A stretch of 64,000 nucleotides of DNA, taken from the IMG/VR virus record IMGVR_UViG_3300024294_000597; one strand, given 5' to 3'. The notes under the pieces are model-generated. The model searched no databases and was not told where the DNA came from. It was given only the letters and a program-made list of their open reading frames with translations. Origin of the DNA: a virus. This document shows, piece after piece, positions 85 through 47,573 of this stretch; the first letter of the stretch is position 1, and every line of letters starts with the position of its first letter. A program made the position numbers and the translations under genes.

Positions 85-1575
85 TTATTTAACTGTTGGT
101 CTTAGCTTAGTCAATGCAATAAAGATTAAGCTAGATACAATTAAACCAGGAACTATCGGCTCAACAAAGTTGTATACACCCATATCATAAGTGATACCAG
201 TGAATAGCTTTGATTCTTTGAAGTGTACGAATAGTACCCAAATGATACTCACCGAAGCACCACCGATAAAACTAGTAAGAGCATGACGACCATTAGATAG
301 TCCTCTTGCCATACCAATAACGAGTGGAAGCATCGCCGCTCCTATAATACCAAAGTACAACGCAGTAGCACGTGCAATGATGGCCACTTGACCATTAAAT
401 GCAATAGTCATCCAGACTGCTAATACAATAACTGCAATCATAGAAATATATGCTACTTTCAAACTTGGGTTTTTAGTTTTGATAATATCATTTGAAATAG
501 TAGTTGATAACAAGTGCATCAAACTATTAAGTGTTGTAAATGCGGCCGCTAAAATTGTAACGAACAACGCACTACTTACCCAAGCAGGAAATCCTTCCTT
601 AATCCAATAAGGGATTACATTTGCAGTCCCTCCACCAGATGCTTGTGATACAGTGATACCTTCAGTCGCAAACGTATATGAGTTAGCCGAAATTGCCGCT
701 AACATAAATGTTACGATTGCTAGACCTGGGATAATAACACCCCACCTTGCAATAGTTTTAAAACTCTTTTCATCTTTAGCCATCATCCAACGTGTTTGTA
801 GTTGAGGCAAAGTGATAAGTCCTACTGGAATAGTGAATACCAATAATGTAGTAATCATTAACCAGCCTCTAGACCAAAACTCTGGCCAGCTAGTAAACCC
901 AGTAAATCCTAACTTATGCAAAGCATCACCTTCTGGAACTGCTGTCCAGGCTAGTGATAAGTTTTCCCAAAATCCAACTGCCTGCATATGACTAAACACT
1001 GTAATAGCAAGTACGATAAGTGAACCTAAAATAACAATGATACCTTGTACCATATCATTTTTTAGAACTGCACTCATTCCGCCATATGCGATTGTGCCAA
1101 ATACTAAAACACTAAATCCAACTACAGCAAGTGTGAAATCAACACCTGTAAATGCTGTAATAAATTTACCGACACCTATTAGCACCGCAACACAGTAAAA
1201 CGGAATTAATCCAACTGTGATGATTGCCAATAGTTTTGAAATCATTGGAGAGTTATAATGCTTACCAATCATTTCAATATAGGTTTTAGCTTTATGCTTT
1301 TTGTTTGCCTTATAAACTTTAGGACCGATATACACGGTCGCAAAATAAATTAAGCCTACAAATGGAATTGTCATTGTTAGTGGGACTGCAAATCCAATCC
1401 AACCAGCAAGGCCTCCGAATCCAATGATAGCAGACGTTGAAATTAACGTTGCACCATAAGACAGCCCTAGGTTCATATTACTATCTGATGTAGTTAGAAA
1501 GTAATTATCCCCTTTAGACCTGTAGGCTACATAACCTACTGCTACAATAAAAAGTAGCATTAATATTGTGTTCAT
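85..1575 (-). CDS. Sodium:solute symporter (SSS/PutP-like) family transporter
   Basis: 496 aa with about 13 hydrophobic segments; YGGMSAVLKNDMVQG and ILAAAFTT motifs typical of SSF; RBS AGGAGG. Confidence 0.85.
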   Translation of the reverse strand: MNTILMLLFIVAVGYVAYRSKGDNYFLTTSDSNMNLGLSYGATLISTSAIIGFGGLAGWIGFAVPLTMTIPFVGLIYFATVYIGPKVYKANKKHKAKTYIEMIGKHYNSPMISKLLAIITVGLIPFYCVAVLIGVGKFITAFTGVDFTLAVVGFSVLVFGTIAYGGMSAVLKNDMVQGIIVILGSLIVLAITVFSHMQAVGFWENLSLAWTAVPEGDALHKLGFTGFTSWPEFWSRGWLMITTLLVFTIPVGLITLPQLQTRWMMAKDEKSFKTIARWGVIIPGLAIVTFMLAAISANSYTFATEGITVSQASGGGTANVIPYWIKEGFPAWVSSALFVTILAAAFTTLNSLMHLLSTTISNDIIKTKNPSLKVAYISMIAVIVLAVWMTIAFNGQVAIIARATALYFGIIGAAMLPLVIGMARGLSNGRHALTSFIGGASVSIIWVLFVHFKESKLFTGITYDMGVYNFVEPIVPGLIVSSLIFIALTKLRPTVK

Positions 1576-1611: not shown

Positions 1612-1702
1612 TGGCGGAGAGTGAGAGATTCGAACTCTCGGTGGACTATTCACCCACGCTGGTTTTCAAGACCAGTGCATTAAACCGCTCTGCCAACTCT
1701 CC
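1612..1702 (-). tRNA. tRNA-Ser(TGA)
   Basis: GGAGAGTTGGCAGAGCGG...CTGGTCTTGAAAACCAG, long variable arm, GTTCGAATC, encoded CCA. Confidence 0.95.
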
Positions 1703-1767
1703 AGAACAACCGCATTTATTGTACGGTTAATCCCTATTATACACTGAAAATTATACAGTGTCAATAC

Positions 1768-1950
1768 TTATTTCGTAATAGTTTTGTTATCGATTGGAAT
1801 GCAACTTATCGTTTGTCCTTTACCTGTAACTAGTATATGTGCTTTGCTGAGAGCATTACCGCACAGTTTTTCTTCACTGTAAGTACCTAAATGATAATAT
1901 TCCATATTACCTGCTGGTGTAACTGCTAACCATATTAGAATCCATATCAT
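1768..1950 (-). CDS. Small hypothetical protein with hydrophobic N-terminus and two Cys
   Basis: 60 aa ORF with AGGAGA RBS, between tRNAs. Confidence 0.6.
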   Translation of the reverse strand: MIWILIWLAVTPAGNMEYYHLGTYSEEKLCGNALSKAHILVTGKGQTISCIPIDNKTITK

Positions 1951-1989
1951 AACACTGTCTCCTCTATGCTATGGGATAATCTATAGAAT

Positions 1990-2064
1990 TGGAGCGGGTG
2001 ATGAGATTCGAACTCACGACAACCTCGTTGGCAACGAGGTACTCTACCACTGAGTTACACCCGC
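1990..2064 (-). tRNA. tRNA-Gly(GCC)
   Basis: GCGGGTGTAACTCAGTGGTAGAGTACCTCGTTGCCAACGAGG...TCCA cloverleaf. Confidence 0.95.
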
Positions 2065-2072: not shown

Positions 2073-2125
2073 TTGACTTCTAGTTATTTATCAAGTATAA
2101 TACACGTATATAAATAGATTGTCAA
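2073..2125. promoter_or_regulatory. Overlapping opposed sigma70 promoters plus a TATAAATA late motif
   Basis: Plus strand: TTGACT(2073)-17 nt-TATAAT(2096) toward the 2127 operon. Minus strand: TTGACA(2120-2125)-17 nt-TATTAT toward tRNA-Gly. TATAAATA at 2109-2116. Confidence 0.7.
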
Positions 2126-2126: not shown

Positions 2127-2666
2127 ATGATTATTACAGAAGAACTAAAAGTAATAACACCTGAACTGAAAGATTTTCTAAAAGTATGCGATGAAAAAGA
2201 TTTCATGAACAACAATACATTAGAAAATATGAAGTTTGAATGGTGCTTAGAGCGAGGTGGCATGTGGTATGCTACCTATGACAATGGACGTATGGTTAGT
2301 GTCAGTGGAATACATCCATGGGCAAACGGTTGGCGTGCTTTATTCAGAGGTGTGCAGACTGAAAGCAAAAAGATAGGTTTGAACAGACACCATATGCAAA
2401 GCTATTGCTTTCATAGTCAGTTGCCATATCAGATTGAATATGCGTCAAGTAAAGAAACAGATTTAGATAATATGTTTATCTATATTACTACTAACACAGA
2501 GAATGATGCAAGTGGTAAGATGAATAGAATTGATAAAACATTCTTTCATTTAGAAAAGTTAGAGTTAGTTAAGAACTTAGGAACAAGTGAAGTTTTTGGT
2601 GTAAATCAAAACACGTGGATATTAAACATAAACAAATACAATGAAATTAGAAGACAGTATAACTAA
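2127..2666 (+). CDS. GNAT-like acyltransferase (putative)
   Basis: WYATYDNGRMVSVSGIH...WRALFRG pattern resembles GNAT strands b2-b4; first gene of operon. Confidence 0.5.
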   Translation: MIITEELKVITPELKDFLKVCDEKDFMNNNTLENMKFEWCLERGGMWYATYDNGRMVSVSGIHPWANGWRALFRGVQTESKKIGLNRHHMQSYCFHSQLPYQIEYASSKETDLDNMFIYITTNTENDASGKMNRIDKTFFHLEKLELVKNLGTSEVFGVNQNTWILNINKYNEIRRQYN

Positions 2667-3339
2667 AAACGAATTTGATGATATGCTTAAAGAAGGCTGT
2701 ATACTGCAAAGTAGCGGAACAACAGGCGTACCAAAGAATATATTTCAAAATCCTGATAAATTAAGACATGCAAATGCTGTTGCTAGAAAAATACAAGGTA
2801 TTGATAGTGATAGTAAAATACTTACTGTTTGTACATTACGGCATGCAGGTGGGCTATTAGCCCAAACATTGCCAGGATATGAAGTAGGGGCAGAAATCGA
2901 GGTAGAGAAATTTAACCCGTTCTCATGGGTCAGAAAGATACAAAACTTTTCTCATAGTCACCTGACGCCTGATATGGCAAGAGCAATAATGAAAACAAAA
3001 AGTTTTAATAGTCTTAATTTACAAGATAAGATTATCATGTGTGGCAGTGATAGAGTACATAGTTCTATTATAAAAGAATTTATTAACAAGGGAGCAATCT
3101 TTATTGTAAATTGGGGTATGACAGAAGTAGGACCAGTAGCAATTAACAAGACGTTTGTTCCTGGAATGGAAGTTCGTACTACTGAAACAATAATGGGCAA
3201 CGCCGCACAATGTGAAACTAAGATTGTAAATGATGAATTATATGTCAAGGGAGATATATGTGTATATGATGATTGGTTTGCTACTGGAGATTTAGTACAA
3301 AACAAGGAAGGTATGTTCTACTATGTTGGACGAAAGTAG
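2641..3339 (+). CDS. Minimal ANL-superfamily adenylation (AMP-binding) enzyme
   Basis: QSSGTTGVPK (A3), WGMTE (A5), FATGDL (A7), VGRK (A8); ends at the hinge, so the C-terminal subdomain is missing. Confidence 0.8.
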   Translation: MKLEDSITKNEFDDMLKEGCILQSSGTTGVPKNIFQNPDKLRHANAVARKIQGIDSDSKILTVCTLRHAGGLLAQTLPGYEVGAEIEVEKFNPFSWVRKIQNFSHSHLTPDMARAIMKTKSFNSLNLQDKIIMCGSDRVHSSIIKEFINKGAIFIVNWGMTEVGPVAINKTFVPGMEVRTTETIMGNAAQCETKIVNDELYVKGDICVYDDWFATGDLVQNKEGMFYYVGRK

Positions 3340-4090
3340 AATTATATTCATATCATTTGAACAGGGATGTGGTGGACATAAATTAGGGAGAGTATTGTCT
3401 TGCTTACCTGATGTATATTGGTATAGTCATAAAGATAACGGTACTAACCCATGGAATGTTTATTTTAAAAATTCAGATATACGACAACGGCATATAAGTC
3501 GCTATCATTTTGATAGACTAGTACCTAATGGTTCCTTGCCGCCAATACATGATTATGTAAAAGATTTTATACCAGATGAGGAACATTACTATACTAGGTT
3601 CTTTTACCCACGCTTCGAAAAGATGGGTGGCCATGCGATAATCAAAAAGAATAGAATTATTATATGCACACACGAATTGCCAGAGAAATTACTAAAAAGA
3701 TTTCCTAATGCAAAAGTATTAAATTTGATAGATGATGAATATACAACAGGCGAACGATACTTGCGAACAACTGCGGTGTTTCCTGGATTTCTTAAAATGA
3801 AATGGCTAGGTGGAGAAAATACAGAATATGGGAAAAAGCTAAGAACAATCGCCAAAGAGATAGGCTCTGATTTCACAATACGAGATATTTGGTCTTGGGA
3901 TAAATATAAATTGAAGTTCAATGATAAACATCACATTGAGTACTCTATGCATATACACGACATTATAAGAATGAATATGTGGAAAAGACGTTATCTACCC
4001 TCACGTTATATAAATTCATCAAACATATATGAAATAGATAAAAACTATGTAAACTATAAAGGTATAAAAAGGTTCTTGAATGATAGATGA
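3323..4090 (+). CDS. P-loop/sulfotransferase-like protein (divergent)
   Basis: N-terminal IIFISFEQGCGGHKL loop; IICTH...FPNAKVL segment as in the sulfotransferase fold. Confidence 0.45.
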   Translation: MLDESRIIFISFEQGCGGHKLGRVLSCLPDVYWYSHKDNGTNPWNVYFKNSDIRQRHISRYHFDRLVPNGSLPPIHDYVKDFIPDEEHYYTRFFYPRFEKMGGHAIIKKNRIIICTHELPEKLLKRFPNAKVLNLIDDEYTTGERYLRTTAVFPGFLKMKWLGGENTEYGKKLRTIAKEIGSDFTIRDIWSWDKYKLKFNDKHHIEYSMHIHDIIRMNMWKRRYLPSRYINSSNIYEIDKNYVNYKGIKRFLNDR

Positions 4091-4793
4091 AAGTAAACTT
4101 ATATTTTTTACAGGTGCTCCTGGAAGTAAATGGAGTGCAGTAAGTAATGTGTTGTCTATGACAAAAAAGATTAACATCAATACTACTGATAGAAATGAAG
4201 ATAGAGAATATACACATCCAACTAAATTTAATAAAGCACAACATCTAGGAAGTTACTTTGGCACGGGCATGGAGTTCGGTGAAGGTTGGCATGAGATTAA
4301 TAAGTTCTCAAAACAAGAAATATTAAATGAAATAGATAAAGCCTGGAAAGAAGAAAAAAGAACTGATTACAGAATTGTAAAATCACATATGATATCAAAC
4401 AACTTAGATTTTATTGCAGAGACATTTCCTAAGAGTAAGATTATAATAGTGTTCAGACCTATAGAAAGTTGTTATAAAGGTTGGTTTGGTGCAGGTGGGT
4501 TTGATATAACTTATCCAAAGTATCATGGTTACTATAAAGATGAACAAACTGCACGTGAATATATAAAAGAAGAAACTAAAGATGCAAGACAATGGATATT
4601 TAATAGAAACTTAACAATTCATACTGCAACCAGTAAGCATTGGAAAGATTATTGGGATATAACTGATAGTCAAAATAGATTTATAAAAAGTATAGAGGGT
4701 TATTTCTTTGAAAAGAAAGATCCTAGTAGAGATGTTTCGTTAGACACTCATATTGCTTATTATAATTTTGATAAAATAGATGAAAGATTATAA
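4080..4793 (+). CDS. P-loop/sulfotransferase-like protein (GAPGSKWS type)
   Basis: IFFTGAPGSKWS; IVKSH; FPKSKIIIVFRP mirrors the sulfotransferase KxH and 3'-PB motifs. Confidence 0.55.
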   Translation: MIDESKLIFFTGAPGSKWSAVSNVLSMTKKININTTDRNEDREYTHPTKFNKAQHLGSYFGTGMEFGEGWHEINKFSKQEILNEIDKAWKEEKRTDYRIVKSHMISNNLDFIAETFPKSKIIIVFRPIESCYKGWFGAGGFDITYPKYHGYYKDEQTAREYIKEETKDARQWIFNRNLTIHTATSKHWKDYWDITDSQNRFIKSIEGYFFEKKDPSRDVSLDTHIAYYNFDKIDERL

Positions 4794-5881
4794 TGTTATT
4801 AAAATATGCAATCGTTGTACTTAGAAGTGGCGATGACCATTTTGATAAGATTGCTCTAAATTATACACAATTAAGTTTAGACTATCAAGAATGCAATAGA
4901 TTACCAACAGAAAACCAAGTTGATTATTATGTAATGGACAGTTACACATACTTGCATGATTACGATATTGTTATGGTTGTCAATGCTGGAACTATATTCT
5001 TATGGGGTGCATACGAACATCATTATAAAAAAATGATTGAAGCATCAAATCATGAATATATACATTTTAGTGATGACGTTTGGTTTCATAAGCCATTGGG
5101 CGACGGCACAACCCACATAGAAGCAAAGTTTATTCATAAGTTAAACACAGATAGTGCAGAAGAATTCTACAATAGCCATGATACTATTTTAACAAGTTTA
5201 ATTGATGATAGCAATATTACATATCTAATGCACAATGAAATACCAAACTACGGAGATATAACTAAACCAGTTGATTGGGCAATAACAGTAAGCAGTGGAT
5301 TTTTCATTAACTGTATATTAGACCATCATGGGTTTAATGAGAAGTCTGTAATACATCATGTCGATATCTCAAAGATAAGTCTTCATGTTCACAAGTATAC
5401 TATTGAAAATTGGGATGGAAATGATTTTGAATCATGGATAGAACATCTTAACAATAAATTTCCTAGCATGTCACTTTGGAATAGAAAGAAATTTACTAGT
5501 GAAGATAGAAAATGGAAAGTCGTATGGGAAGATGTACAGAATCATTTCGGAGACAAATGGCAAGAACACTGGAACAAATATAAAAGTTTAAATCATAAGT
5601 GGCATAGAATGAATATAAAAGATATTAGTTCTATTGATACTAATGGGCAAGGAATGATATGGTGGGACGGTGCATTAAAAAGAATACCAAGTAACCTACT
5701 AAAGACAAGTAAACAAAGTCATCAAAATGCAATAGATTTCTTATGGAGATTACCAGAAGATACGATATGCTATGGCAACGACCATTGCAATTTGCAATTT
5801 GATGGTGTAAGTTCTAAACTAGCACTTAAAAAAGTTCTATCACACAATAGCAGAGAGAAATTATGGACGGACAAGATTTAA
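4793..5881 (+). CDS. Hypothetical protein, possible transferase domains
   Basis: 362 aa, translationally coupled; SSGF...HHVDIS resembles a degenerate Rossmann/SAM motif. Confidence 0.4.
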   Translation: MLLKYAIVVLRSGDDHFDKIALNYTQLSLDYQECNRLPTENQVDYYVMDSYTYLHDYDIVMVVNAGTIFLWGAYEHHYKKMIEASNHEYIHFSDDVWFHKPLGDGTTHIEAKFIHKLNTDSAEEFYNSHDTILTSLIDDSNITYLMHNEIPNYGDITKPVDWAITVSSGFFINCILDHHGFNEKSVIHHVDISKISLHVHKYTIENWDGNDFESWIEHLNNKFPSMSLWNRKKFTSEDRKWKVVWEDVQNHFGDKWQEHWNKYKSLNHKWHRMNIKDISSIDTNGQGMIWWDGALKRIPSNLLKTSKQSHQNAIDFLWRLPEDTICYGNDHCNLQFDGVSSKLALKKVLSHNSREKLWTDKI

Positions 5882-6564
5882 TATTGGCAACAGGTGCTCC
5901 TGGGAGTAGATGGAGTGGCACCTTACGTGCTATTAGTACTAATCCAAATATCAATATTAGTGACGAAAGAAGTGAACTAGAATACGCCAGAGACTATGTT
6001 ACGCCTGATGGTAAAACAAAACAGTATGGTTGGCATCGAGGTGCTTATTGGGGTCCATATCATAATCAAGGTCAAAGATTTGATAATCTACAAGATATGA
6101 CAAAAGATGAAATCATAAAAGAATTCAAAAAGCCATATAAAGATTTTAACTATGGTGTTAAGATAATAAAAAGTCATTGGTTTGCATATCATCTTCCTTT
6201 ACTACAAGACTTATTTCCAAAAGCAAAGATTATGGCTGTATATATGCCATCTGATTTTTGTTTTGATTGGTGGAGAAATAAAGTAGGTGGTTGGGATATA
6301 TCATATCCACATTATGATTGGTATGAGAATGATGCACGTATGATTAAACAGATTAACATAGAAAATACAAATATAGAAAACTTCTTTGATTTACAACAAC
6401 TATCAATATATGAAGTGTTTGAAAAACTTGGTCTACCATCTGAATTTAGAAGTGAAGAAGAATTAATTTCACAAGATTCTAAATTGAAAGATTTAACTAA
6501 GAATAAAGATTATAAAAAAGTTTTAGATAACACAGTACATCGTAGTTTTACTGGTATAAAATAA
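5863..6564 (+). CDS. P-loop/sulfotransferase-like protein, paralog of 4080..4793
   Basis: ILATGAPGSRWS; IIKSH; FPKAKI; GGWDISYPHY matches GGFDITYPKY in the paralog. Confidence 0.55.
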   Translation: MDGQDLILATGAPGSRWSGTLRAISTNPNINISDERSELEYARDYVTPDGKTKQYGWHRGAYWGPYHNQGQRFDNLQDMTKDEIIKEFKKPYKDFNYGVKIIKSHWFAYHLPLLQDLFPKAKIMAVYMPSDFCFDWWRNKVGGWDISYPHYDWYENDARMIKQINIENTNIENFFDLQQLSIYEVFEKLGLPSEFRSEEELISQDSKLKDLTKNKDYKKVLDNTVHRSFTGIK

Positions 6565-7151
6565 TGAAAGATGTACCTAACTCTGGAACATATGTAATGA
6601 TGTTGAGTGGCGGACTTGATAGTGCGTTACTCTCTTATCTAGTTCTAAAAGAGTTACCAAATACAAAGCTGGTCTTAAGTAGTGTATGTCATCAATCTTT
6701 AAATTACTATAATCTATTTAATGTAATAGCAATTACAAATTGGTTACATGCTAGATTTCCAAACAGAATTGAAGAACATTATATTGGTTACTATAAAGAT
6801 AGAAATGAAGCACGAAACAATAGAACCAAAACTAGAGATAGACTTATTGATAAACATAAAGCATCAGGTATATTAACTGGTATGACACTAAATCCCTCTG
6901 AATTAATGACAGAAGGACGTGATGAAAGTAGAGACAAAAAGCGAGAAATTAGAGTAATCTCATCACATGGGGTATATCATTATCGTCCGTTTATAAATAG
7001 TACTAAACAAACGGTAGCAGAATTATATAACGAACATAATTTACAAGACTTAGCAAATTTAACTATCAGTTGTGAAAGCGAAAGTTTGCCTAGACCATGT
7101 AAAGAATGTTGGTGGTGTAAAGAGAAGTATTGGGCTTTCGGTTACTATTAA
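6564..7151 (+). CDS. QueC-like PP-loop ATPase
   Basis: LSGGLDS PP-loop, RPF motif, C-x8-CxxCxxC Zn site. Confidence 0.75.
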   Translation: MKDVPNSGTYVMMLSGGLDSALLSYLVLKELPNTKLVLSSVCHQSLNYYNLFNVIAITNWLHARFPNRIEEHYIGYYKDRNEARNNRTKTRDRLIDKHKASGILTGMTLNPSELMTEGRDESRDKKREIRVISSHGVYHYRPFINSTKQTVAELYNEHNLQDLANLTISCESESLPRPCKECWWCKEKYWAFGYY

Positions 7152-7166
7152 TGTAAAGGACACGAA

Positions 7167-7847
7167 ATGTCATTAGGACTAGAAGAATATAATAAGTTTC
7201 ATCCAACTGTATTACAACCTCTTGATATGAAAATTGATGTAAATTTGTTTGAAGAACAAATGCATGAATACAGATACGCATTTAGACGTTGGGGTACTAA
7301 ACACACTGAATATCCAAGATATGGAGCTCCTCTCGTTAATTTAAACGGAGATATGTTCAACAATCCAGAACCTATATGTTATCCATTAAATCAATGGAAT
7401 GAAGGAAAGAAAGAAGAAGATAAAGTACGTGACCCGAAATGTACTTCACCTACTCCAATGTTGGCAGAATCATGCTTTGATCCTCTTGAACCAATTAAAC
7501 CTTTTATGTATAGAAGTGCTATATTAAAGTGGCATACTACTGGACATTTTAAACCTCATACAGATACTAAAATACCTAGTGATATTATTAGACTATGGGG
7601 AACAAATGATCCAGATAATATGATATTTCAATTTGATAAAGATAGAAAAACAGCTAGTCCAAGAGAAGTGGCAGAGGGTAATCTATCATATGATTTAGTA
7701 AGAGAAAAAGATATAGAAGCAGGTAGATTATATATAACAGATACACACGTAATACATGATGCAAGTTCTATCGGTGATAATGTATATCAATTTTTTATTT
7801 CATTAAGCACTGATAGTATGCCAACATTGAAAGAGTTACTATTATGA
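7167..7847 (+). CDS. 2OG-Fe(II) oxygenase (Asp/Asn beta-hydroxylase-like)
   Basis: RSAILKW...FKPHTD...GRLYITDTHVIH: HxD...H triad. Confidence 0.7.
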   Translation: MSLGLEEYNKFHPTVLQPLDMKIDVNLFEEQMHEYRYAFRRWGTKHTEYPRYGAPLVNLNGDMFNNPEPICYPLNQWNEGKKEEDKVRDPKCTSPTPMLAESCFDPLEPIKPFMYRSAILKWHTTGHFKPHTDTKIPSDIIRLWGTNDPDNMIFQFDKDRKTASPREVAEGNLSYDLVREKDIEAGRLYITDTHVIHDASSIGDNVYQFFISLSTDSMPTLKELLL

Positions 7848-8260
7848 ACTACACCAAATTAGACTTACCAAAAATACCAAAAGATTTGATACTTCCACTA
7901 GAAGAAGTATTGAAACTTGAAAATATATTTGGAGGCAAAAGTAAGAATTATACAATACATGAATGCCAACCAGAACTTAAGGAATATTTGCAAGAGTTAT
8001 TCCCTGATTGTACTAAATTTAGATATCAGACATTAACAAAGGATATACCAATACACACAGATAGAGGTAGAGAATTTGCAATTAATTATATTATACAAAC
8101 TGGTGGACAAAATGCAGAGACATGTTGGTATGAAGAATTTGTACAAGAACCTATAGATTCTGTTATAATACCCAAAGAAGAATGGCATAAATTAGCAGTA
8201 AACGTGCATCATACAGTAAGAAATATCACAGATTGGCGATTTGCTATCACTGTGTGCTAA
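7844..8260 (+). CDS. Cupin/2OG-Fe(II) oxygenase-like protein
   Basis: IPIHTD...AINY...WHKLAVNVHHTV...R. Confidence 0.65.
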   Translation: MNYTKLDLPKIPKDLILPLEEVLKLENIFGGKSKNYTIHECQPELKEYLQELFPDCTKFRYQTLTKDIPIHTDRGREFAINYIIQTGGQNAETCWYEEFVQEPIDSVIIPKEEWHKLAVNVHHTVRNITDWRFAITVC

Positions 8261-8294
8261 AATAGATAAATAGTAGTATATTAGGGAGACAACG

Positions 8295-8564
8295 ATGCCA
8301 CATATATTAAGATTTAAAAACGAAGGTACAGGCGAAGACGGTAAGCAATGCTCAGATGATGCACAGGCAATTTATGACCGTTATGTAGCCGAAAATAAAA
8401 TTATAGAAATGGATATCATTACTATGGGTTTAGCTGGTGAATACACTAAGATTGCTTTTGCAACATCAGAAGATTGTGATGCATTTAGACAAGAAATGTC
8501 TGATATCAATGAATCTGAAACAAGCGGTGATAATCGTTCAGATGTATCCAGATATGATGAATAA
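8295..8564 (+). CDS. Small acidic hypothetical protein
   Basis: 89 aa; GATAAATA late motif and AGGGAG RBS upstream. Confidence 0.7.
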   Translation: MPHILRFKNEGTGEDGKQCSDDAQAIYDRYVAENKIIEMDIITMGLAGEYTKIAFATSEDCDAFRQEMSDINESETSGDNRSDVSRYDE

Positions 8565-8575
8565 CTAAGGATTAT

Positions 8576-8746
8576 ATGAGAGACACTAAATCGCTAACCG
8601 GGTATACAACTAAGATGCTACGTGAAGCGAAACAGAAACTTCTTTCTCGTTTCCTACGAAAAGAAGTAAATATTGGAAACAATGGTACACAAGATTACAT
8701 AATAAAAAAAGGACCGAACAAAGGTTCAGTCGCAAAGAAAAAGTAA
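8576..8746 (+). CDS. Small basic protein (56 aa, MRDTKS...GTQDYIIKKGPNKG), not in ORF track
   Basis: AAGGA RBS, ATG at 8576, TAA at 8744; fills the gap between convergent genes. Confidence 0.65.
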   Translation: MRDTKSLTGYTTKMLREAKQKLLSRFLRKEVNIGNNGTQDYIIKKGPNKGSVAKKK

Positions 8747-9041: not shown

Positions 9042-9464
9042 CTATTTAGTCCTATTTCCTCTTAAAGCAAAAAATAAACCACCTACCCATAGAAATACGT
9101 GGAAGTTATCATATAAAATTACGTCTAATATACTTTCTGGTTCACCAACCCAGATAACACCTGTCATTATACAACAGATTGTGATACCACAAAATCGTGT
9201 AAGTAAATCACCGATATATGGCCATAACTTTTCTGTATTTAACAGTCCTCCTACGATTAGGCCTAAGCCTGCACCTAGTTCTCCGTAACTGACAACCCAC
9301 CAAACCAAGTATGGGAGACCAAAACTTTCAGCATCTTCTATTGATACTGGTAGCTTACTTAGACCTTGTTGAATAAACACAATGGCTAAAGGAATTCTGA
9401 ATAGCCAATGAGACAAACAGAACTCCGGTAGTTTTTCGCTTATACGTTTAAGATAGTTCATCAA
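9042..9464 (-). CDS. DoxX family membrane protein
   Basis: LFRIPLAIVFIQQGLSKL and ELGAGLGLIVG...LTR motifs. Confidence 0.75.
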   Translation of the reverse strand: MMNYLKRISEKLPEFCLSHWLFRIPLAIVFIQQGLSKLPVSIEDAESFGLPYLVWWVVSYGELGAGLGLIVGGLLNTEKLWPYIGDLLTRFCGITICCIMTGVIWVGEPESILDVILYDNFHVFLWVGGLFFALRGNRTK

Positions 9465-9885
9465 GCAATGCTTTCAGTTTCTTTTTACTTTTACCTCTGA
9501 CCTTTGCTTTGCTGATATCATTTAGTGGGACTTCCCCACCTTCTGCTACTGTTACAATAGCAATCATACCCATTGTTGCATGTGGAGTACACTGATATAG
9601 ATATACGCCTGGTACGTCAAAAGTAATACTTACTTCTTTATTATTTTTACTTTTCTTTGGAAGATCCCAACCGTCTGGTCCTGCAATAAAATGTACATTG
9701 TGACCTTTTGATGTCGGTACCCAAGTAATTGTATCGCCTACTTCAATGTTTGCGATATCTTCACTGTAGACCATCTTTGCTCCATCATCACGTTTGTTAA
9801 GCATTTCGATAGTCATATCATCTGCGTATGCAAACGTTCCAATTAAGAGGCTACTAGCGAGTGTAACGATATACGTTAATTTCAT
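9448..9885 (-). CDS. Pseudoazurin / type-1 blue copper protein
   Basis: Signal peptide; IEMLNK; GHN and YQCTPHATMGM give the His/Cys/His/Met ligands. Confidence 0.9.
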   Translation of the reverse strand: MKLTYIVTLASSLLIGTFAYADDMTIEMLNKRDDGAKMVYSEDIANIEVGDTITWVPTSKGHNVHFIAGPDGWDLPKKSKNNKEVSITFDVPGVYLYQCTPHATMGMIAIVTVAEGGEVPLNDISKAKVRGKSKKKLKALLDELS

Positions 9886-9920: not shown

Positions 9921-10005
9921 TGGTGCCCATGGAGGGACTTGAACCCCCACTCCGTAAAGAACAGGTACCTAAAACCTGCGTGTCTACCAATTTCACCACA
10001 TGGGC
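9921..10005 (-). tRNA. tRNA-Leu(TAG)
   Basis: GCCCATGTGGTGAAATTGGTAGACACGCAGGTTTTAGGTACCTG...CACCA. Confidence 0.95.
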
Positions 10006-10014
10006 TAAATTTTG

Positions 10015-10230
10015 TTATTCAGATTTTGAAAAATATTTCTCAATCATTTCTAGTCGGTCATTAGCGGCCGCAAGTTTATTAAGTTCTTCAATGACTGCCT
10101 CGGTAACATCTGAATGCTCTCCGATACCAGCAGGCATTGTTTGATAAACTTGAATGTTTGCTAGATGAACCGCTACTTCACCTTCTGCTTGTTTTTGTGC
10201 GGCTAGGATAATTGCTTCGCCTGGTTTCAT
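10015..10230 (-). CDS. Conserved phage hypothetical protein
   Basis: PAGIGEH motif protein recalled from marine T4-like phages; AAGG RBS. Confidence 0.65.
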   Translation of the reverse strand: MKPGEAIILAAQKQAEGEVAVHLANIQVYQTMPAGIGEHSDVTEAVIEELNKLAAANDRLEMIEKYFSKSE

Positions 10231-10251
10231 GGTTTTACCTTTCTTATTTTG

Positions 10252-10327
10252 TGGTGCCGATTGTCGGATTCGAACTGACGACCTACTGATTACAAATCAG
10301 TTGCTCTACCAACTGAGCTAAATCGGC
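10252..10327 (-). tRNA. tRNA-Thr(TGT)
   Basis: GCCGATTTAGCTCAGTTGGTAGAGCAACTGATTTGTAATCAG...CACCA. Confidence 0.95.
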
Positions 10328-11392: not shown

Positions 11393-12031
11393 CTAAAGCC
11401 CGCCTGCACTTGCCCTTCTCGTTATAATATTATTATCTAACGTATTGTATTTAACAAAATTACCATCTTTATCTATCCAAAAGTTGACTAATGGCAGTTG
11501 TTGTCCTCTTATGGAGTATTGTTTTTCACCTATTACTACTTCTACATAAGGATTAATCTTAATTACTTTAAACTTGACCACAATTTCAGATGCTTTTAAT
11601 TTCTTTCTGGCAGATGCATTTGGTGATGCTGAATATATATGTGCGGCAACTTGATATTGTCCCTTAGAAGTTCCACGCAAAGTGACAACTTCTCTATTGA
11701 TGTAGATTATATTGCGTTGTCCATATTCATCAATCGTCATATCATTGGCAGTTCCTAAATCATCTTTTTCAAGGTTCATTGCGCCTGCCATTTTCTTTAT
11801 GAAGGATACCGTATTGCCAGCTGGATCTTTAACCCATAAGTCAACATCATCAGGTAATGTATGAGGCCATTCTATAACAATCATGTACTCTGCTTTTTTA
11901 GGTACATCTTGTTTCTTTGTGATTGGGTTAATAAGGATAAAAGCAATAATGAACAGGAATACAAAACCTACTAGTAGATTAAATAGTAAGTCTGTAAATC
12001 CTACTGTACTTTTGTACTTATAACGGCTCAT
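11393..12031 (-). CDS. MotB/ExbD-like TM anchor fused to a YfaP/DUF2135-like domain
   Basis: GFTDLLFNLL: Asp in a single TM; DDVDLWVKDPAG...LEKDDLG...NRE...GQYQVAAHIY. Confidence 0.6.
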   Translation of the reverse strand: MSRYKYKSTVGFTDLLFNLLVGFVFLFIIAFILINPITKKQDVPKKAEYMIVIEWPHTLPDDVDLWVKDPAGNTVSFIKKMAGAMNLEKDDLGTANDMTIDEYGQRNIIYINREVVTLRGTSKGQYQVAAHIYSASPNASARKKLKASEIVVKFKVIKINPYVEVVIGEKQYSIRGQQLPLVNFWIDKDGNFVKYNTLDNNIITRRASAGGL

Positions 12032-12486
12032 TCGTAGTCACGACTCTCAAGATTAACTAATTGTATCTTAGTAAACTGACTGAATATTAGTCCGGTGAGA
12101 GTTGTGTACAATGCAGTACTCATTCCTAATGCCATTGCAGTGAGTGTCGATTTGAGACTGGCTGTATCTTCTACATCTAATCCTTCGAAACTAGAACCTA
12201 GCATAAGAATAAATCCTGCTACAGTTCCAATCATACCCAATGCTAACATACTTTCTGAGATAAACCATCCAATGCCTAATCCGGCTTCAATGGACTCACC
12301 TTTATTATGTTGAATAGTTAGCTTACCTATATATAGGCTTGCAAAAAAATATAATCCTATAATACCGAAACTAATTTTTGTAATATCTTTTTCGTATAAC
12401 TCATGGAATATTCCAAAGTAATGAGCGATACCCATTACAGTCAGTGATATACAAAAGAATAACCACCACCTAAGTGTCTTTGACAT
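12028..12486 (-). CDS. MotA/TolQ/ExbB proton channel family protein
   Basis: LGMIGTVAGF and GMSTALYTTLTGL signature helices. Confidence 0.8.
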   Translation of the reverse strand: MSKTLRWWLFFCISLTVMGIAHYFGIFHELYEKDITKISFGIIGLYFFASLYIGKLTIQHNKGESIEAGLGIGWFISESMLALGMIGTVAGFILMLGSSFEGLDVEDTASLKSTLTAMALGMSTALYTTLTGLIFSQFTKIQLVNLESRDYE

Positions 12487-12498: not shown

Positions 12499-12738
12499 CT
12501 ATAATTTATCAACATGCTCCTGAACGCATTGAATGGCATCACCAATCGTGTGGATTAGGTTTGCGTATTCATCTTCAATCGCAATACCATAGAATTCTTC
12601 CACTTCAAATACAATTTCAACTGTATCGATACTATCAGCACCTAAGTCTTTTTTGAGATTTGTTTCATCATTCAAGTCAGTAACTTGTTTTTTCAATTTA
12701 CGTGCAACTATTTCATACACTTTGTCTTTTACTACCAT
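12499..12738 (-). CDS. acpP: Acyl carrier protein
   Basis: DLGADSIDTVEIV with the phosphopantetheine Ser; acidic, 79 aa. Confidence 0.92.
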   Translation of the reverse strand: MVVKDKVYEIVARKLKKQVTDLNDETNLKKDLGADSIDTVEIVFEVEEFYGIAIEDEYANLIHTIGDAIQCVQEHVDKL

Positions 12739-12760: not shown

Positions 12761-13084
12761 TTATACTGAAAAGCTACTACCACACCCACATGTAGTACTC
12801 GCTCCTGGGTTATCGATTACAAATCTATCACCTTGTAGACTTGAAATGTAATCTACTTTTGCATCTGCTAGATACATAATGCTCATACTATCTACTACTA
12901 ACTTTACGCCATTAGTCTCGTAAATACTATCATCATCTTTAAGTTCTTTTTCAAAACCAAAACCATAACTGAAACCATGACACCCACCGCCTTCAACAAA
13001 CACTCTTAGTGCAGTATCAACCGATTCTCCCTGTTCAGTAATAATTTCTTCAACACGTTCTGCCGCTTTTTCTGTAAAAATCAT
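12761..13084 (-). CDS. A-type Fe-S carrier (ErpA/IscA family)
   Basis: GGGCHGFSYGF and TTCGCGSSFSV; start moved to the ATGA overlap. Confidence 0.92.
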   Translation of the reverse strand: MIFTEKAAERVEEIITEQGESVDTALRVFVEGGGCHGFSYGFGFEKELKDDDSIYETNGVKLVVDSMSIMYLADAKVDYISSLQGDRFVIDNPGASTTCGCGSSFSV

Positions 13085-13809
13085 ACTCGCCATACCTTTA
13101 TATCTCTGGACTGTTTGCTATACATAGAGTATTTCAAATCATCGTCCGTTGATTTAATTGAATAATCAACAGGGCCACCTGTCAAATATTCTTTATTATT
13201 CTTACTTTGGTACCACTTAAGACTTTCATCTGGATAGCCAATACCTAAACTGTAAGTTAAGTTATTATCTTCTGGTTTGATGCCTAACACTTCTCCCCAT
13301 ACTTCTTGACTATGCTTAGGTTCTTCTATGTAACCAAAGTTTTTTCCATAACCTGTAACATATCCCATTTGGTTTGCACTAAATGCCACTATGCCACTGG
13401 CTATACCAATCGATGTAAATGCATTATCCCATCTGCTTGATGCATTTGGGTCTCTTACACTTCCATCTTTTTCGTTATTACGAATTTCTTCTTCATTCAT
13501 TTTTCTATTAAAAACAAATAAACAATTTGCACCCATTTGAGGATTTCTTCCTACCCAATCTTTTACGCCTGGAATCATAGTGAAGCCCCATGAATGATCC
13601 TTGCATAGATAGTCTATCTTTTCTCTATCAGTAACAACATACAAATCAAAGAAACTTTCATCTTGCTTCGAAGGTGCCGTAGTTGCTAGATAGACCCAAT
13701 GGTCTATGTGGTCTTCATTAACTTTTTTAGAAAGGTCCCAGTTTCGTTGACACCTACGTGCTTGATTAATTGCATTTCTTTCTGCAATCATTTTTTCTTC
13801 GTTGGTCAT
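13081..13809 (-). CDS. Nitroreductase-fold flavoprotein
   Basis: RRCQRNWD, APSKQ, IGIASG, LGIGYP; ATGA-coupled start. Confidence 0.75.
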   Translation of the reverse strand: MTNEEKMIAERNAINQARRCQRNWDLSKKVNEDHIDHWVYLATTAPSKQDESFFDLYVVTDREKIDYLCKDHSWGFTMIPGVKDWVGRNPQMGANCLFVFNRKMNEEEIRNNEKDGSVRDPNASSRWDNAFTSIGIASGIVAFSANQMGYVTGYGKNFGYIEEPKHSQEVWGEVLGIKPEDNNLTYSLGIGYPDESLKWYQSKNNKEYLTGGPVDYSIKSTDDDLKYSMYSKQSRDIKVWRV

Positions 13810-14135
13810 ACTGTAAAACTCTCCCCACAACCACATCGTGCTTTTTCATTTGGATTGCTTACAAGTTCAAAATGCGAACTCATACTTTTCTCATCAGTAA
13901 CATAATCCAATGTTGCTTCATCGATAGTGTGAAAATATTTATGCTCTACTAGTATATCAAAATCGCTATACTTTATAGCAAAGTCATCAGTTATATTAAA
14001 ATTGTCATCTAATTGCACTTCATACATAAAGCCAGTACATCCTGCAGTTTTGATATGCAATCTTACATGTTTCTCTGGGTTTTGTGACAGCCAAGTTCTA
14101 ATTCGTTGAGTGGCGTTATCTGTTAAATACAACAT
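13806..14135 (-). CDS. A-type Fe-S carrier (IscA/SufA family)
   Basis: TAGCTGFMY and RCGCGESFTV. Confidence 0.88.
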   Translation of the reverse strand: MLYLTDNATQRIRTWLSQNPEKHVRLHIKTAGCTGFMYEVQLDDNFNITDDFAIKYSDFDILVEHKYFHTIDEATLDYVTDEKSMSSHFELVSNPNEKARCGCGESFTV

Positions 14136-14698: not shown

Positions 14699-15166
14699 TC
14701 AAGTCGAAAAATCAATATTTTTTAACTTTTCAGTAAGTTCATGGTATGGTCGTAATCTTGGATCTGTCTTGTCGTTTTGATTAAATTGTAGACCATATCT
14801 CCAGCCTTCCTCTACTCGGCTAGAAACCCATCTATTGTGTCGCATTGATGATAAATCTATTTCGGTCTCACCCTCTGGGATGTCAAATTTTTCACTGGTA
14901 GTAATTTCCATAGTAAAATCTTTATCAGTCCATTTTTGCAGTAGTTGTAATACAACTTCCGCCTCCGCTTCTGTGACGGCTCTATTCATACGAAAATCAT
15001 ATACGTGAAAATCATCAAGCATATGATACACTACTGCGGTACCGTCTTCTCTTGGTTCAAAGATATTGGCAATAGCTTTATCCAGAACAGTAATCACGCC
15101 TTTAATATCGTGTTTATTCCATTCTTCTTTCATTGATAATCTAATGTGATGTTTGAACTGTGCCAT
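14699..15166 (-). CDS. RyR-domain protein
   Basis: HNRWVSSRVEEGWRYG...KTDPRLRPYHEL. Confidence 0.75.
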   Translation of the reverse strand: MAQFKHHIRLSMKEEWNKHDIKGVITVLDKAIANIFEPREDGTAVVYHMLDDFHVYDFRMNRAVTEAEAEVVLQLLQKWTDKDFTMEITTSEKFDIPEGETEIDLSSMRHNRWVSSRVEEGWRYGLQFNQNDKTDPRLRPYHELTEKLKNIDFST

Positions 15167-46550: not shown

Positions 46551-46628
46551 TGGTCGGGGTGGTAGGATTCGAACCTACGCTCTCCTGGTCCCAAACCAGG
46601 CGCTTTAGCCAGACTAAGCTACACCCCG
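46551..46628 (-). tRNA. tRNA-Pro(TGG)
   Basis: CGGGGTGTAGCTTAGTCTGGCTAAAGCGCCTGGTTTGGGACCAGG...ACCA. Confidence 0.95.
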
Positions 46629-46632
46629 ATAA

Positions 46633-47556: not shown

Positions 47557-47573
47557 CTATTATCCTTTCTTCT

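What the first reader, a model, noticed from the sequence alone, without database searches (positions are those of the whole stretch)
2127..8260. Nine-gene tailoring operon: GNAT + minimal adenylation enzyme + atypical P-loop proteins + QueC-like + two 2OG oxygenases
Seen: an overlapping/tightly coupled plus-strand operon, opposite to the flanking genes, with its own sigma70 and TATAAATA promoters. Every recognisable gene is a group-transfer or oxidation enzyme. No queD/queE/folE or DNA transglycosylase is visible, so this is not a standard 7-deazaguanine pathway. Inference: an uncharacterised phage biosynthetic pathway that activates a carboxylate (ANL, possibly onto the phage ACP at 12499), transfers it (GNAT), then sulfates or phosphorylates, amidates and hydroxylates a target. 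The target could be virion proteins, a surface glycolipid, DNA/tRNA or a small molecule.
Basis: partly seen in the sequence, partly recalled or inferred. Interest (0 to 1): 0.78.

Follow-up and report, generated by a model that had tools for sequence, protein, structure and literature searches.

The report
Modular tailoring-enzyme operon in marine jumbo phage
An uncultured giant marine phage carries a real, tightly packed operon of group-transfer and oxidation enzymes, built from gene modules that recur in many marine phages; it most likely decorates an amino-acid, peptide or virion-protein substrate, but its product is unknown.

Summary
The operon is real. Eleven co-directional, mostly overlapping + strand ORFs (2127-8746) lie between minus-strand genes, and all are colinear in four related viral contigs.

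- o1 has a GNAT fold.
- o2 is a half-size ANL adenylating enzyme that keeps motifs A3, A5, A7 and A8.
- o3, o4 and o6 are three (not two) homologous P-loop proteins, only weakly sulfotransferase-like.
- o7 is a Zn-type QueC-like PP-loop ATPase without QueC's substrate motifs.
- o8 belongs to an Asp/Pro-hydroxylase family; o9 has only an HxD...H...R motif.
- o5 is new: a nucleotidyltransferase-like domain plus a methyltransferase-like domain.

The operon is modular. GNAT and mini-ANL co-occur in 40 of 41 viral lineages. o4 directly precedes o5. o3::o1 and o5::o7 fusion proteins exist. The full nine-gene set occurs in only two lineages, in different gene orders.

Neighbours in other phages are tryptophan halogenases, Asp hydroxylases, many radical SAM/SPASM enzymes, P450s and Mtd-type tail-fibre genes. 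This favours amino-acid, peptide or virion-protein tailoring. A 7-deazaguanine pathway is unlikely, because a complete relative has no TGT/DpdA.

The proposed link to the phage ACP is unsupported. The scan had already noted this stretch and a sister cassette in the same genome.

The parts
2073..2116 (+). Promoter-like sites: TTGACT-17-TATAAT (2073-2101), then TATAAATA (2109-2116), 11 nt before the o1 ATG
   Evidence: These are consensus matches only. TATAAATA is not enriched in the window (5 found, 10.6 expected).
2127..2666 (+). o1: GNAT-fold acyltransferase (179 aa) of a family found almost only in viral and metagenomic sequence, with no Pfam match
   Evidence: AF2 model pLDDT 90.5. Foldseek gives 231 PDB hits at E<=1e-3, and every hit listed is a GNAT. 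VIA Z reaches 11.5. The family has 64 database clusters. It gave no tblastn match in GenBank phage records and one 2.8-kb MAG contig among 185,579 species genomes.
2641..3339 (+). o2: half-size ANL adenylating enzyme (232 aa). It spans motifs A3 to A8 only and lacks the N-terminal subdomain and the C-terminal (A10) domain.
   Evidence: Pfam AMP-binding 9.7e-17, profile positions 167-378 of 384. Closest families are FadD, MenE and 4CL. Invariant in the family: S25, G26, W158, G159, E162, T215, D217, R231; K32 and M160 are conserved in at least 90%. Family members are 212-260 aa long. It lies within 10 kb of o1 in 40 of 41 lineages.
3323..4090 (+). o3: P-loop protein (255 aa), a distant homologue of o4 and o6. 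In some phages it is fused N-terminally to the o1-type GNAT.
   Evidence: hhalign of A3 against A4: probability 88.6%, E 2.7e-6 over 135 columns. Fusion proteins of 413-417 aa occur in L023, L031 and L051 and as P0130 and P0131. It accompanies the pair in 20 of 41 lineages.
4080..4793 (+). o4: P-loop protein (237 aa) with a GAPGSKWS loop and an invariant His103; sulfotransferase-like below threshold
   Evidence: Pfam Sulfotransfer_3 at 2.6e-4, 21.8 bits against a cut-off of 27. Six of 14 family members give this weak hit. It directly precedes o5 in all five lineages that have both. The family has 311 clusters at 50% identity.
4793..5881 (+). o5: two-domain protein (362 aa). The N-terminal domain is GT-A/nucleotidyltransferase-like and the C-terminal domain is class I methyltransferase-like. 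In some phages it is fused to a QueC-like domain.
   Evidence: AF2 model pLDDT 88.5. VIA: residues 140-351 match 6ulo at Z 11.2 and PNMT/INMT at Z 9; residues 2-140 match IspD and CMP-sugar synthetases at Z about 8. Fusion proteins P0010, P0011 and P0019 carry PF06508.
5863..6564 (+). o6: paralogue of o4 (233 aa, about 33% identity). The Arg of the putative 3'-phosphate motif is replaced.
6564..7151 (+). o7: QueC-like PP-loop ATPase with a Cys4 zinc motif (195 aa). It lacks the carboxy-deazaguanine-binding motifs.
   Evidence: Pfam QueC 7.8e-6 and ATP_bind_3 6e-5. PHROG QueC-like 2e-10. TilS_N 4.8e-6. Invariant in the family: S15, G16, G17, S20, P142, K148, S169, C170, C179, C182, C185, E187.
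7167..7847 (+). o8: Fe(II)/2OG dioxygenase of the Asp/Asn/Pro-hydroxylase family (226 aa)
   Evidence: Invariant H131, D133 and H197. Five of 11 family members hit PF05118. The family profile hits proline hydroxylases 4p7w and 1e5r at E 6.5e-4.
7844..8260 (+). o9: small (138 aa) putative double-stranded beta-helix dioxygenase, identified by motif only
   Evidence: Invariant H71, D73, H123 and R132. The language-model search gives leads to 2OG-FeII_Oxy_3 (0.91) and Asp_Arg_Hydrox (0.89). There is no profile link to o8 or to PDB.
8295..8564 (+). o10: acidic 89-aa ORF, conserved only in close relatives
   Evidence: No family match was found.
8576..8746 (+). o11: basic 56-aa ORF, conserved only in close relatives

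Best explanation
The block is one operon of a roughly 340-kb T4-like marine jumbo phage. It is assembled from three movable modules of the tailoring-enzyme toolkit that fills the hypervariable islands, often beside a tail-fibre gene, of marine myophages.

- Module A: the half-size ANL (o2) adenylates a carboxylic acid. The GNAT (o1) passes the acyl group to an amine. The P-loop protein o3 acts on the same substrate.
- Module B: the P-loop, sulfotransferase-like o4 (and its paralogue o6) add sulfate or phosphate. o5 methylates through its methyltransferase-like domain. The QueC-like enzyme o7 adenylates a carboxylate and converts it to an amide, or to a nitrile or conjugate.
- Module C: o8 and o9 hydroxylate C-H bonds and so supply hydroxyl groups.

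The common substrate is most likely an amino acid, a peptide or a virion (tail-fibre) protein.

Shown here: the folds and motifs, the gene linkage, the fusions and the genomic context. Inferred: every catalytic step, the order of the steps and the substrate.
For: - Gene identities.
- Linkage: o1 and o2 lie together in 40 of 41 dereplicated lineages, in variable order, so they are not one frameshifted gene. o4 abuts o5 in all five lineages that have both.
- Fusions: o3::o1 and o5::o7.
- The complete o1-o9 set recurs in a second lineage (L027-L029) at roughly 45-60% identity with a different gene order, which argues for selection on co-location.
- Context in 69 loci: Asp_Arg_Hydrox in 43 loci, radical SAM in 42, Trp_halogenase in 32 (often between o1 and o2). 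Also present are P450, B12-radical SAM, SPASM, class IV aminotransferase and nitroreductase genes, and Mtd_N tail-fibre-like genes directly upstream of the pair.
- Literature: Iyer et al. 2010 (PMC2938197) predicted peptide or protein targets, including tail-collar and collagen-like proteins, for neighbourhoods that combine beta-hydroxylases, sulfotransferases, acetyltransferases and halogenases, including those of cyanophage Syn9.
- A PP-loop enzyme acting on a hydroxylated peptide has a precedent (PMC13060819).
Against: - No substrate, precursor peptide or recognition element was identified. o10 and o11 are not conserved outside close relatives.
- The sulfotransferase assignment is below Pfam's cut-off, and an 83-sequence profile finds no solved sulfotransferase.
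- o2 lacks the A10 lysine domain that full-length ANL enzymes use for adenylation, so it may not be catalytic alone.
- In this phage the operon lies about 9 kb from the nearest tail-fibre-like gene and about 40 kb from the main radical SAM island of the complete relative.
- A sister cassette in the relative's genome couples the same GNAT family to a ketosynthase, which points to acyl small-molecule chemistry.
Confidence: 0.45

Rival explanations
1. The operon makes a small-molecule natural product. The ANL activates a fatty or aryl acid and the GNAT condenses it with an amino acid or amine, as FeeM-type N-acyl amino acid synthases do. The remaining enzymes hydroxylate, sulfate, methylate and amidate this free metabolite, which then acts on the host or on competitors.
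For: o2's nearest relatives are acyl/aryl-CoA ligases (FadD, MenE, 4CL), not NRPS A domains. The complete relative has a second cassette with a full-length 4CL-like ANL, a halogenase, a GNAT of the o1 family and a FabF-type ketosynthase. The window encodes an ACP. FeeM and an NRPS acyltransferase domain are among the GNAT fold matches at Z about 10. Solute transporters (SSF, TctA, DctP) lie beside such cassettes. A class IV aminotransferase lies beside the pair in L051.
Against: No ACP homologue lies near the pair in 65 other loci. This operon has no ketosynthase, thioesterase or condensation enzyme. SPASM radical SAM enzymes and Asp hydroxylases in sister islands more often act on peptides.
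Confidence: 0.27
2. The operon modifies a nucleotide-sugar or a cell-surface glycan (O-antigen or nonulosonic-acid type). In this reading the GNAT N-acylates an amino sugar, o5's N-terminal domain makes or uses a nucleotide-sugar, o7 forms an amide or amidine, and the P-loop proteins sulfate the sugar. The outcome would be an altered host surface or glycosylated virions.
For: Residues 2-140 of o5 resemble IspD, CMP-NeuAc synthetase and CMP-Pse synthetase, and GT-A folds (Z 7-8). A sugar-nucleotide GNAT (FdhC) is among the fold hits. The hypervariable host-recognition clusters of pelagimyophages hold many LPS genes (PMC7029224). An earlier follow-up on a related island favoured a sugar product.
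Against: The Z values are in the range of common-fold matches. No Pfam glycosyltransferase, sugar dehydratase, epimerase or sugar aminotransferase family turned up in the operon or among the recurrent neighbour families that were scanned. Halogenases, P450s and SPASM enzymes are not sugar enzymes.
Confidence: 0.13
3. The operon hypermodifies DNA or tRNA bases. In this reading a QueC/TilS-like PP-loop enzyme, a methyltransferase-like enzyme, P-loop kinases resembling 5-hydroxymethyl-dU DNA kinases, and a Mom-like GNAT act on nucleic acid.
For: o7 matches QueC and the TilS N-terminal domain. tRNA genes flank the operon. Related cassettes lie near ThyA, DHFR and RNR genes. Phage thymidine hypermodification uses P-loop kinases and radical SAM enzymes (PMC8989533 appeared in the search list but was not read; this point rests on my own knowledge).
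Against: The complete 342-kb relative has no TGT/DpdA, and its only PTPS gene is about 180 kb away. The QueC substrate motifs YxQxHxxE, VPxRN and YPDC (PMC13329287) are absent and not conserved in the family. ThyA occurs together with DHFR, the ordinary dTMP pair. The most frequent neighbours are amino-acid or peptide enzymes.
Confidence: 0.08

Closest known systems
Multi-dioxygenase / halogenase / sulfotransferase / acetyltransferase gene neighbourhoods predicted to modify peptides or tail-collar and collagen-like proteins (Iyer, Abhiman, de Souza, Aravind 2010, PMC2938197), including the cyanophage Syn9 array
   Same: The same combination of enzyme classes appears: beta-hydroxylase-family dioxygenases, P-loop sulfotransferase-like proteins, a GNAT and, in sister loci, Trp halogenases. 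The genes occur in marine myophages next to fibre genes. The function is predicted, not shown.
   Different: This operon adds a GNAT family found almost only in viral sequence, bound to a half-size ANL, a QueC-like PP-loop ATPase and the o5 family. None of these was found in the passages of that paper that I read. No PAPS synthetase lies in the operon; the complete relative has only one APS-kinase-like hit, elsewhere in its genome. o1 gave no tblastn match and o2 only one weak match in GenBank phage records.
Host recognition cluster / hypervariable islands of marine T4-like pelagimyophages and cyanomyophages (PMC7029224)
   Same: Related cassettes begin right after the conserved AAA - DUF2201 - ... 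- Mtd_N fibre-gene backbone and contain radical SAM cassettes.
   Different: In this phage the operon sits apart from that island, inverted, and next to tRNA genes. The paper does not describe these families or propose their chemistry.
QueC family: canonical QueC, and Cap9/QatC protein carboxy-deazaguanylases (PMC13329287)
   Same: o7 has the SGGxDS PP-loop, the PF(x)4K motif and the CE(x)nCxxCxxC zinc motif. Its minimal size (195 aa) is like that of Cap9.
   Different: o7 lacks the YxQxHxxE, VPxRN and YPDC substrate motifs. It has no QueD, QueE, TGT, CD-NTase or QatABD partners. Instead it is fused or linked to the o5 family.
GNAT-dependent N-acyl amide and lipopeptide pathways (FeeM N-acyl amino acid synthase; the goadvionin acyltransferase GdvG is cited from my own knowledge)
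   Same: A GNAT is coupled to an acid-activating ANL. The same genome type also has a ketosynthase and an ACP.
   Different: No ACP or ketosynthase is linked to this operon. The ANL is truncated. The acyl donor is unknown.
Asparagine-synthetase-like or PP-loop amidation and nitrilation of hydroxylated ribosomal peptides (nitrilobacillin PesC, PMC13060819)
   Same: A PP-loop adenylating enzyme is combined with Asp/Pro beta-hydroxylases in one cluster.
   Different: The PP-loop clade differs (QueC-like rather than AsnB-like). No precursor peptide was found here.

Membership tests
GNAT acyltransferase superfamily (o1) | The b1-a1-a2-b2-b3-b4-a3-b5-a4-b6-b7 fold | tested here: met
   The AF2 topology fits. 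Foldseek gives 231 hits at E<=1e-3, and every hit listed is a GNAT. In the VIA search 140 chains reach Z>=8, and the 50 entries listed are all GNAT-fold proteins.
GNAT acyltransferase superfamily (o1) | Acyl-CoA pyrophosphate-binding motif A (Q/R-x-x-G-x-G/A) after strand b4 | tested here: inconclusive
   R74, G75, Q77 and G84 are invariant in that region, but their spacing is not canonical. No Pfam GNAT model matches.
ANL adenylate-forming superfamily (o2) | Core motifs A3 (SGTTGxPK), A5 (GxTE), A7 (TGD) and A8 (GR) | tested here: met
   S25, G26, W158, G159, E162, T215, D217 and R231 are invariant; K32 and M160 are conserved in at least 90%. Pfam gives 61.3 bits against a cut-off of 29.9.
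ANL adenylate-forming superfamily (o2) | Full N-terminal domain plus a mobile C-terminal domain carrying the A10 catalytic lysine | tested here: not met
   Only profile positions 167-378 are present, and the protein ends 1 residue after the A8 Arg. The whole family is 212-260 aa long. A 454-aa paralogue in the relative's genome does have both ends.
PAPS-dependent sulfotransferases (o3, o4, o6) | Match to a sulfotransferase family model above its curated threshold | tested here: not met
   The best match is Sulfotransfer_3 at 21.8 bits against a cut-off of 27. Six of 14 family members give weak hits. o3 and o6 give none.
PAPS-dependent sulfotransferases (o3, o4, o6) | 5'-PSB loop, catalytic His, and the 3'-PB Arg...Ser motif | tested here: inconclusive
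   The loop residue G15 and His103 are invariant, and G12, P14, S16 and W18 are conserved in at least 90% of 83 sequences. The Arg126/Ser130 pair occurs only in the o4 lineage and is replaced in o6 and o3. The comparison with SULT motifs comes from my own knowledge.
Canonical QueC (7-cyano-7-deazaguanine synthase) (o7) | SGGxDS PP-loop, PF(x)4K motif and Cys4 zinc motif | tested here: met
   These residues are invariant in the 19-sequence family alignment.
Canonical QueC (7-cyano-7-deazaguanine synthase) (o7) | Substrate motifs YxQxHxxE, VPxRN and YPDC (PMC13329287) | tested here: not met
   They are absent from o7 and not conserved in its family.
Canonical QueC (7-cyano-7-deazaguanine synthase) (o7) | Genomic linkage to queD/queE and a TGT/DpdA transglycosylase | tested here: not met
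   The complete relative G001 has no TGT, and its single PTPS gene lies about 180 kb away.
Fe(II)/2OG dioxygenases, Asp_Arg_Hydrox family (o8, o9) | HxD...H facial triad on a double-stranded beta-helix, with a family-model match | tested here: inconclusive
   o8: the triad is invariant, 5 of 11 relatives hit PF05118, and the family profile hits proline hydroxylases at 6.5e-4, but o8 itself has no Pfam hit. o9: the triad and R132 are invariant, but there is no profile evidence and the fold was not modelled.
Class I SAM-dependent methyltransferases (o5 C-terminal domain) | Rossmann-like methyltransferase fold with glycine-rich motif I and an acidic residue at the end of b2 | tested here: inconclusive
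   The fold matches at Z 9-11. Foldseek TM scores are only 0.26-0.41. T165, S168, G169 and D191 are invariant at the expected places, but the motif is not the canonical GxGxG.
RiPP biosynthetic gene cluster | A precursor peptide gene and a recognition element | not tested
   No systematic search was made. The small ORFs o10 and o11 are not conserved beyond close relatives. The 71-94-aa protein that lies between o1 and o2 in many other phages, assigned to DUF6356 by the contig Pfam tables for its 71-aa form, looks like a membrane protein.

The most novel reading that the evidence does not exclude
The GNAT plus half-size ANL is a two-component acylating enzyme, so far seen almost only in viral sequence, in which the GNAT replaces the missing ANL C-terminal domain. 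Together with a QueC-derived carboxylate amidase or conjugase, sulfotransferase-like proteins and hydroxylases, it writes a combinatorial chemical code on phage tail fibres or other virion proteins. Recombination shuffles the modules to change host range or evade defence.
Probability: 0.18. Interest if true: 0.85.

Novelty: new variant of a known kind. Interest (0 to 1): 0.62.

Why it matters
Marine myophages devote tens of kilobases to enzymes of this kind. The complete relative has 17 radical SAM-family matches (13 above the family cut-off), and nobody knows what they modify.

This operon gives small, tractable handles on that problem:
- an obligate two-gene GNAT/mini-ANL pair found in 41 viral lineages;
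- a QueC-like clade that has left deazaguanine chemistry;
- natural fusion proteins that say which enzymes work together.

If the target is a virion protein, this would be a new layer of phage host-range or defence-evasion biology. If the target is a small molecule, it would be a virus-encoded natural-product pathway. Either way, the truncated ANL and the repurposed QueC scaffold are of enzymological interest.

Tried and rejected
- Split or frameshifted gene. I first suspected that o1 was the missing N-terminal half of the ANL. I rejected this because o1 has a GNAT fold, and the two genes occur in either order or separated by one or two genes in other phages.
- Complex prediction for o1 and o2: no verdict, score 0.00. 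I do not use it either way.
- ACP link: there is no ACP homologue near the pair elsewhere.
- DNA similarity to GenBank phages: none for the operon or for the structural region. By protein search, o1 has no hit and o2 has one 26% hit in a faecal contig.
- Profile searches of o1, o3, o4/o6 and o9 against PDB sequences found nothing useful.
- An exhaustive HMMER search with the o4/o6 profile found a closed family of 311 clusters. It did not merge with classical sulfotransferases.
- o8 and o9 are not detectably homologous to each other.
- Fused forms of the o4 family (P0280, P0158) carry no Pfam domain. The N-terminal 235 aa of the GNAT fusion P0129 are also unassigned.
- TATAAATA as a T4-type late promoter class is not enriched in the window.
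- Language-model atlas searches gave only viral hypothetical proteins.

Full report
**1. The observation**

The window carries nine overlapping or abutting + strand ORFs at exactly the reported coordinates. Two more small co-directional ORFs follow, at 8295-8564 and 8576-8746. Everything around them is on the minus strand. This includes an SSF symporter gene, four tRNA genes, and plastocyanin, DoxX, MotA/ExbB-like, ACP, IscA-like and nitroreductase-like genes.

GC falls to 0.31 inside the block and GC skew turns positive. An 11-of-12 sigma-70-like site (2073-2101) and a TATAAATA (2109-2116) precede the first ATG. Neither motif class is enriched over shuffled sequence, so these sites are only suggestive.

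All 11 ORFs are colinear in four IMG/VR contigs. One of these is a complete 342,607-bp genome with terminal repeats.

Amino-acid identity is mosaic:
- Against one contig, o1 and o2 are 83% identical while o3-o9 are 98-100% identical.
- Against the other three contigs, o3 drops to 63% and o9 to 81%, while o4-o8 stay at 93-99%.

Recombination therefore swaps sub-modules even among close relatives. The genes are real and the operon is real.

**2. What each gene is**

- **o1.** It has no Pfam, PHROG or NCBIfam match. A confident model (pLDDT 90.5) has the GNAT topology. It matches only GNAT structures: 231 Foldseek hits at E<=1e-3 and VIA Z up to 11.5.
- **o2.** It is an ANL enzyme reduced to the stretch from motif A3 to motif A8 (Pfam profile positions 167-378). 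Its 41-member family is uniformly 212-260 aa long and keeps the A3, A5, A7 and A8 residues. It lacks the N-terminal subdomain and the whole C-terminal domain with the A10 lysine. Its nearest full-length relatives are FadD, MenE and 4CL-type ligases.
- **o3, o4 and o6.** They form one superfamily (hhalign 88.6%, E 2.7e-6; o4 and o6 are about 33% identical). They share a G-x-P-G-S-x-W loop and an invariant histidine. The only link to sulfotransferases is a sub-threshold Sulfotransfer_3 match in 6 of 14 members and a motif resemblance that I recall from SULT enzymes. An exhaustive search finds a closed family of 311 clusters, and its profile hits no solved structure. A kinase-like role cannot be excluded.
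- **o5.** A model with pLDDT 88.5 shows two domains. The N-terminal domain is GT-A/nucleotidyltransferase-like (Z about 8). The C-terminal domain is class I methyltransferase-like (Z 11.2 to a Leptospira protein of unknown function, Z 9 to PNMT and INMT).
- **o7.** It has the PP-loop, the PF(x)4K motif and the Cys4 zinc motif of QueC and Cap9. It has none of the carboxy-deazaguanine-binding motifs defined in PMC13329287.
- **o8.** It belongs to an Asp/Asn/Pro-hydroxylase family with an invariant HxD...H triad.
- **o9.** It shows HxD...H...R but no profile evidence.

**3. Linkage**

I seeded a survey with the GNAT family and obtained 65 viral loci. Adding loci seeded with o5 gave 69 loci with 10-kb flanks. 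After dereplication at 90% identity, 41 GNAT lineages remain.

| Family within 10 kb of the GNAT | Lineages (of 41) |
|---|---|
| mini-ANL (o2) | 40 |
| o3 | 20 |
| o4/o6 | 7 |
| o5 | 10 |
| o7 | 11 |
| o8 | 9 |
| o9 | 5 |

The single lineage without the mini-ANL is a contig that ends at the GNAT gene.

- The order of the GNAT and ANL genes varies. One or two genes often sit between them: a Trp halogenase and a small protein that looks membrane-bound (71-94 aa; its 71-aa form is DUF6356 in the contig Pfam tables). They are therefore two genes under strong joint selection, not a broken gene.
- o4 always abuts o5.
- Natural fusion proteins join o3 to o1 and o5 to o7.
- The complete nine-family set occurs in only two lineages, this one and L027-L029. 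The second has a different gene order and roughly 45-60% identity.

The operon is thus a composite of at least three modules, and their co-location has been selected more than once.

**4. Context**

The families that recur around the pair are listed below.

| Neighbour family | Loci |
|---|---|
| Asp_Arg_Hydrox | 43 |
| Radical SAM (largest cluster; several others also present) | 42 |
| Trp_halogenase | 32 |
| Mtd_N tail-fibre-like | 21 |
| P450 | 19 |

Less frequent neighbours are SPASM and B12-binding radical SAM enzymes, methyltransferases, nitroreductases, a class IV aminotransferase and TctA transporters.

In many T4-like marine phages the island starts directly after a conserved backbone: an AAA ATPase gene, a DUF2201 gene, several others, then an Mtd_N gene. 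This is a hypervariable region beside a tail-fibre gene, like the 'host recognition cluster' described for pelagimyophages and cyanomyophages (PMC7029224).

The complete relative has 17 radical SAM-family matches, 13 above the family cut-off, and two Asp hydroxylases, mostly at 94-106 kb and 138-146 kb. It also has a second cassette at 82-88 kb, inserted between the AAA and DUF2201 genes. That cassette holds a full-length 4CL-like ANL, a halogenase, a GNAT of the o1 family and a FabF-type ketosynthase. Earlier notes of this scan reported the same cassette in this genome, about 33 kb before the window.

The GNAT family gave no tblastn match in GenBank phage records. Among 185,579 prokaryote species genomes it matched only one 2.8-kb MAG contig.

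**5. Mechanism**

What is shown is the set of enzyme classes and which of them are physically or genetically coupled. What follows is inference.

- The ANL core forms an acyl-adenylate.
- The GNAT transfers the acyl group to an amine. Whether it does so through CoA, through a carrier, or directly from the adenylate is unknown. The missing A10 domain makes a stand-alone ANL doubtful.
- o8 and o9 hydroxylate the substrate.
- The P-loop proteins sulfate or phosphorylate it.
- o5 methylates it.
- o7 adenylates a carboxylate and amidates it, or goes further to a nitrile or a conjugate.

The neighbouring families are typical of amino-acid and peptide chemistry. These are halogenases, Asp/Pro hydroxylases, SPASM and B12 radical SAM enzymes, P450s and an aminotransferase. 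Iyer et al. (PMC2938197) already inferred peptide or protein targets, including tail-collar and collagen-like proteins, for closely similar neighbourhoods.

My estimates for the substrate are:

| Substrate class | Probability |
|---|---|
| Amino acid, peptide or virion protein | about 0.45 |
| Free acyl-amide type metabolite | about 0.27 |
| Sugar or glycan | about 0.13 |
| Nucleic acid | about 0.08 |

The nucleic-acid reading is weakened by three points. The complete relative has no TGT/DpdA. o7 lacks QueC's substrate motifs. The neighbours are of peptide type.

**6. Comparison and novelty**

The general theme was described bioinformatically in 2010 and 2020: marine myophage islands rich in dioxygenases, halogenases, radical SAM enzymes, sulfotransferase-like proteins and acetyltransferases. 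This finding is therefore not a new category.

Several things were not found in the papers I read:
- the obligate GNAT/half-ANL pair, found almost only in viral sequence;
- the o5 family and its fusion to a QueC-like clade that has lost the deazaguanine motifs;
- the three-way P-loop paralogy with an o3::GNAT fusion;
- the modular structure of the operon.

I class the finding as a new variant of a known kind, with interest 0.62.

**7. Limits**

No substrate was identified. Only two structure models were allowed, so the sulfotransferase and o9 assignments rest on motifs and weak profile hits. The complex prediction gave no verdict. Most related loci are contig fragments, so absence counts are upper bounds.

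Noticed in passing
window 12761-13093 (-) and 13806-14135 (-): Two IscA/ErpA-type Fe-S cluster carrier genes (PF01521; 6e-17 and 1.5e-8) flank a nitroreductase-like gene. The complete relative of this phage has 17 radical SAM-family matches, so the phage may supply its own Fe-S delivery for them.
   Followed up: partly
window 13081-13836 (-), 16200-16991 (-), 36123-37487 (-): A nitroreductase-like protein, a 263-aa protein with no family match and a radical SAM protein in the window have homologues next to the GNAT-ANL pair in 15, 12 and 31 distant viral loci. The tailoring toolkit therefore extends beyond the operon.
   Followed up: partly
L089 3104-9551 (G001 82.1-88.6 kb): The complete relative has a second cassette between the conserved AAA and DUF2201 genes. 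It holds a full-length 4CL-like ANL (454 aa), a Trp-halogenase-like protein (558 aa), two paralogous proteins of about 250 aa, a GNAT of the o1 family and a FabF-type ketosynthase.
   Followed up: partly
window 85-1575 (-), 9448-9885 (-), 9042-9464 (-), 12028-12486 (-), 12499-12738 (-): A run of auxiliary genes lies around the operon: a sodium:solute symporter, plastocyanin, DoxX, a MotA/ExbB-like channel protein and an acyl carrier protein.
   Followed up: no
window 1612-2064, 9921-10327, 46551-47993: Ten tRNA genes, all on the minus strand, including a six-gene cluster at 47574-47993. Two of them directly flank the operon's promoter region.
   Followed up: no
window 17147-21931 (-), 24209-28825 (-), 29939-32170 (-): Giant proteins of 1594 aa (with a head-decoration-like domain) and 1538 aa (with tail-fibre domains), and a ClpA-like ATPase about 47% identical to that of Pseudomonas jumbo phage PA5oct.
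   Followed up: no
L013 7725-7940 and 33 further loci: A small protein of 71-94 aa lies between the GNAT and the mini-ANL, or close by, in 34 loci; its 71-aa form is assigned to DUF6356 in the contig Pfam tables. It has a hydrophobic, membrane-like segment. It is absent from this window's operon.
   Followed up: partly
window 14699-15166 (-): A 155-aa protein with a RyR domain (PF02026, 3.8e-11).
   Followed up: no
L065 1078-1827, 5829-6548, 15935-16633: Some phages carry three divergent QueC-like PP-loop paralogues in one island, all with the zinc motif. This viral clade has diversified.
   Followed up: no
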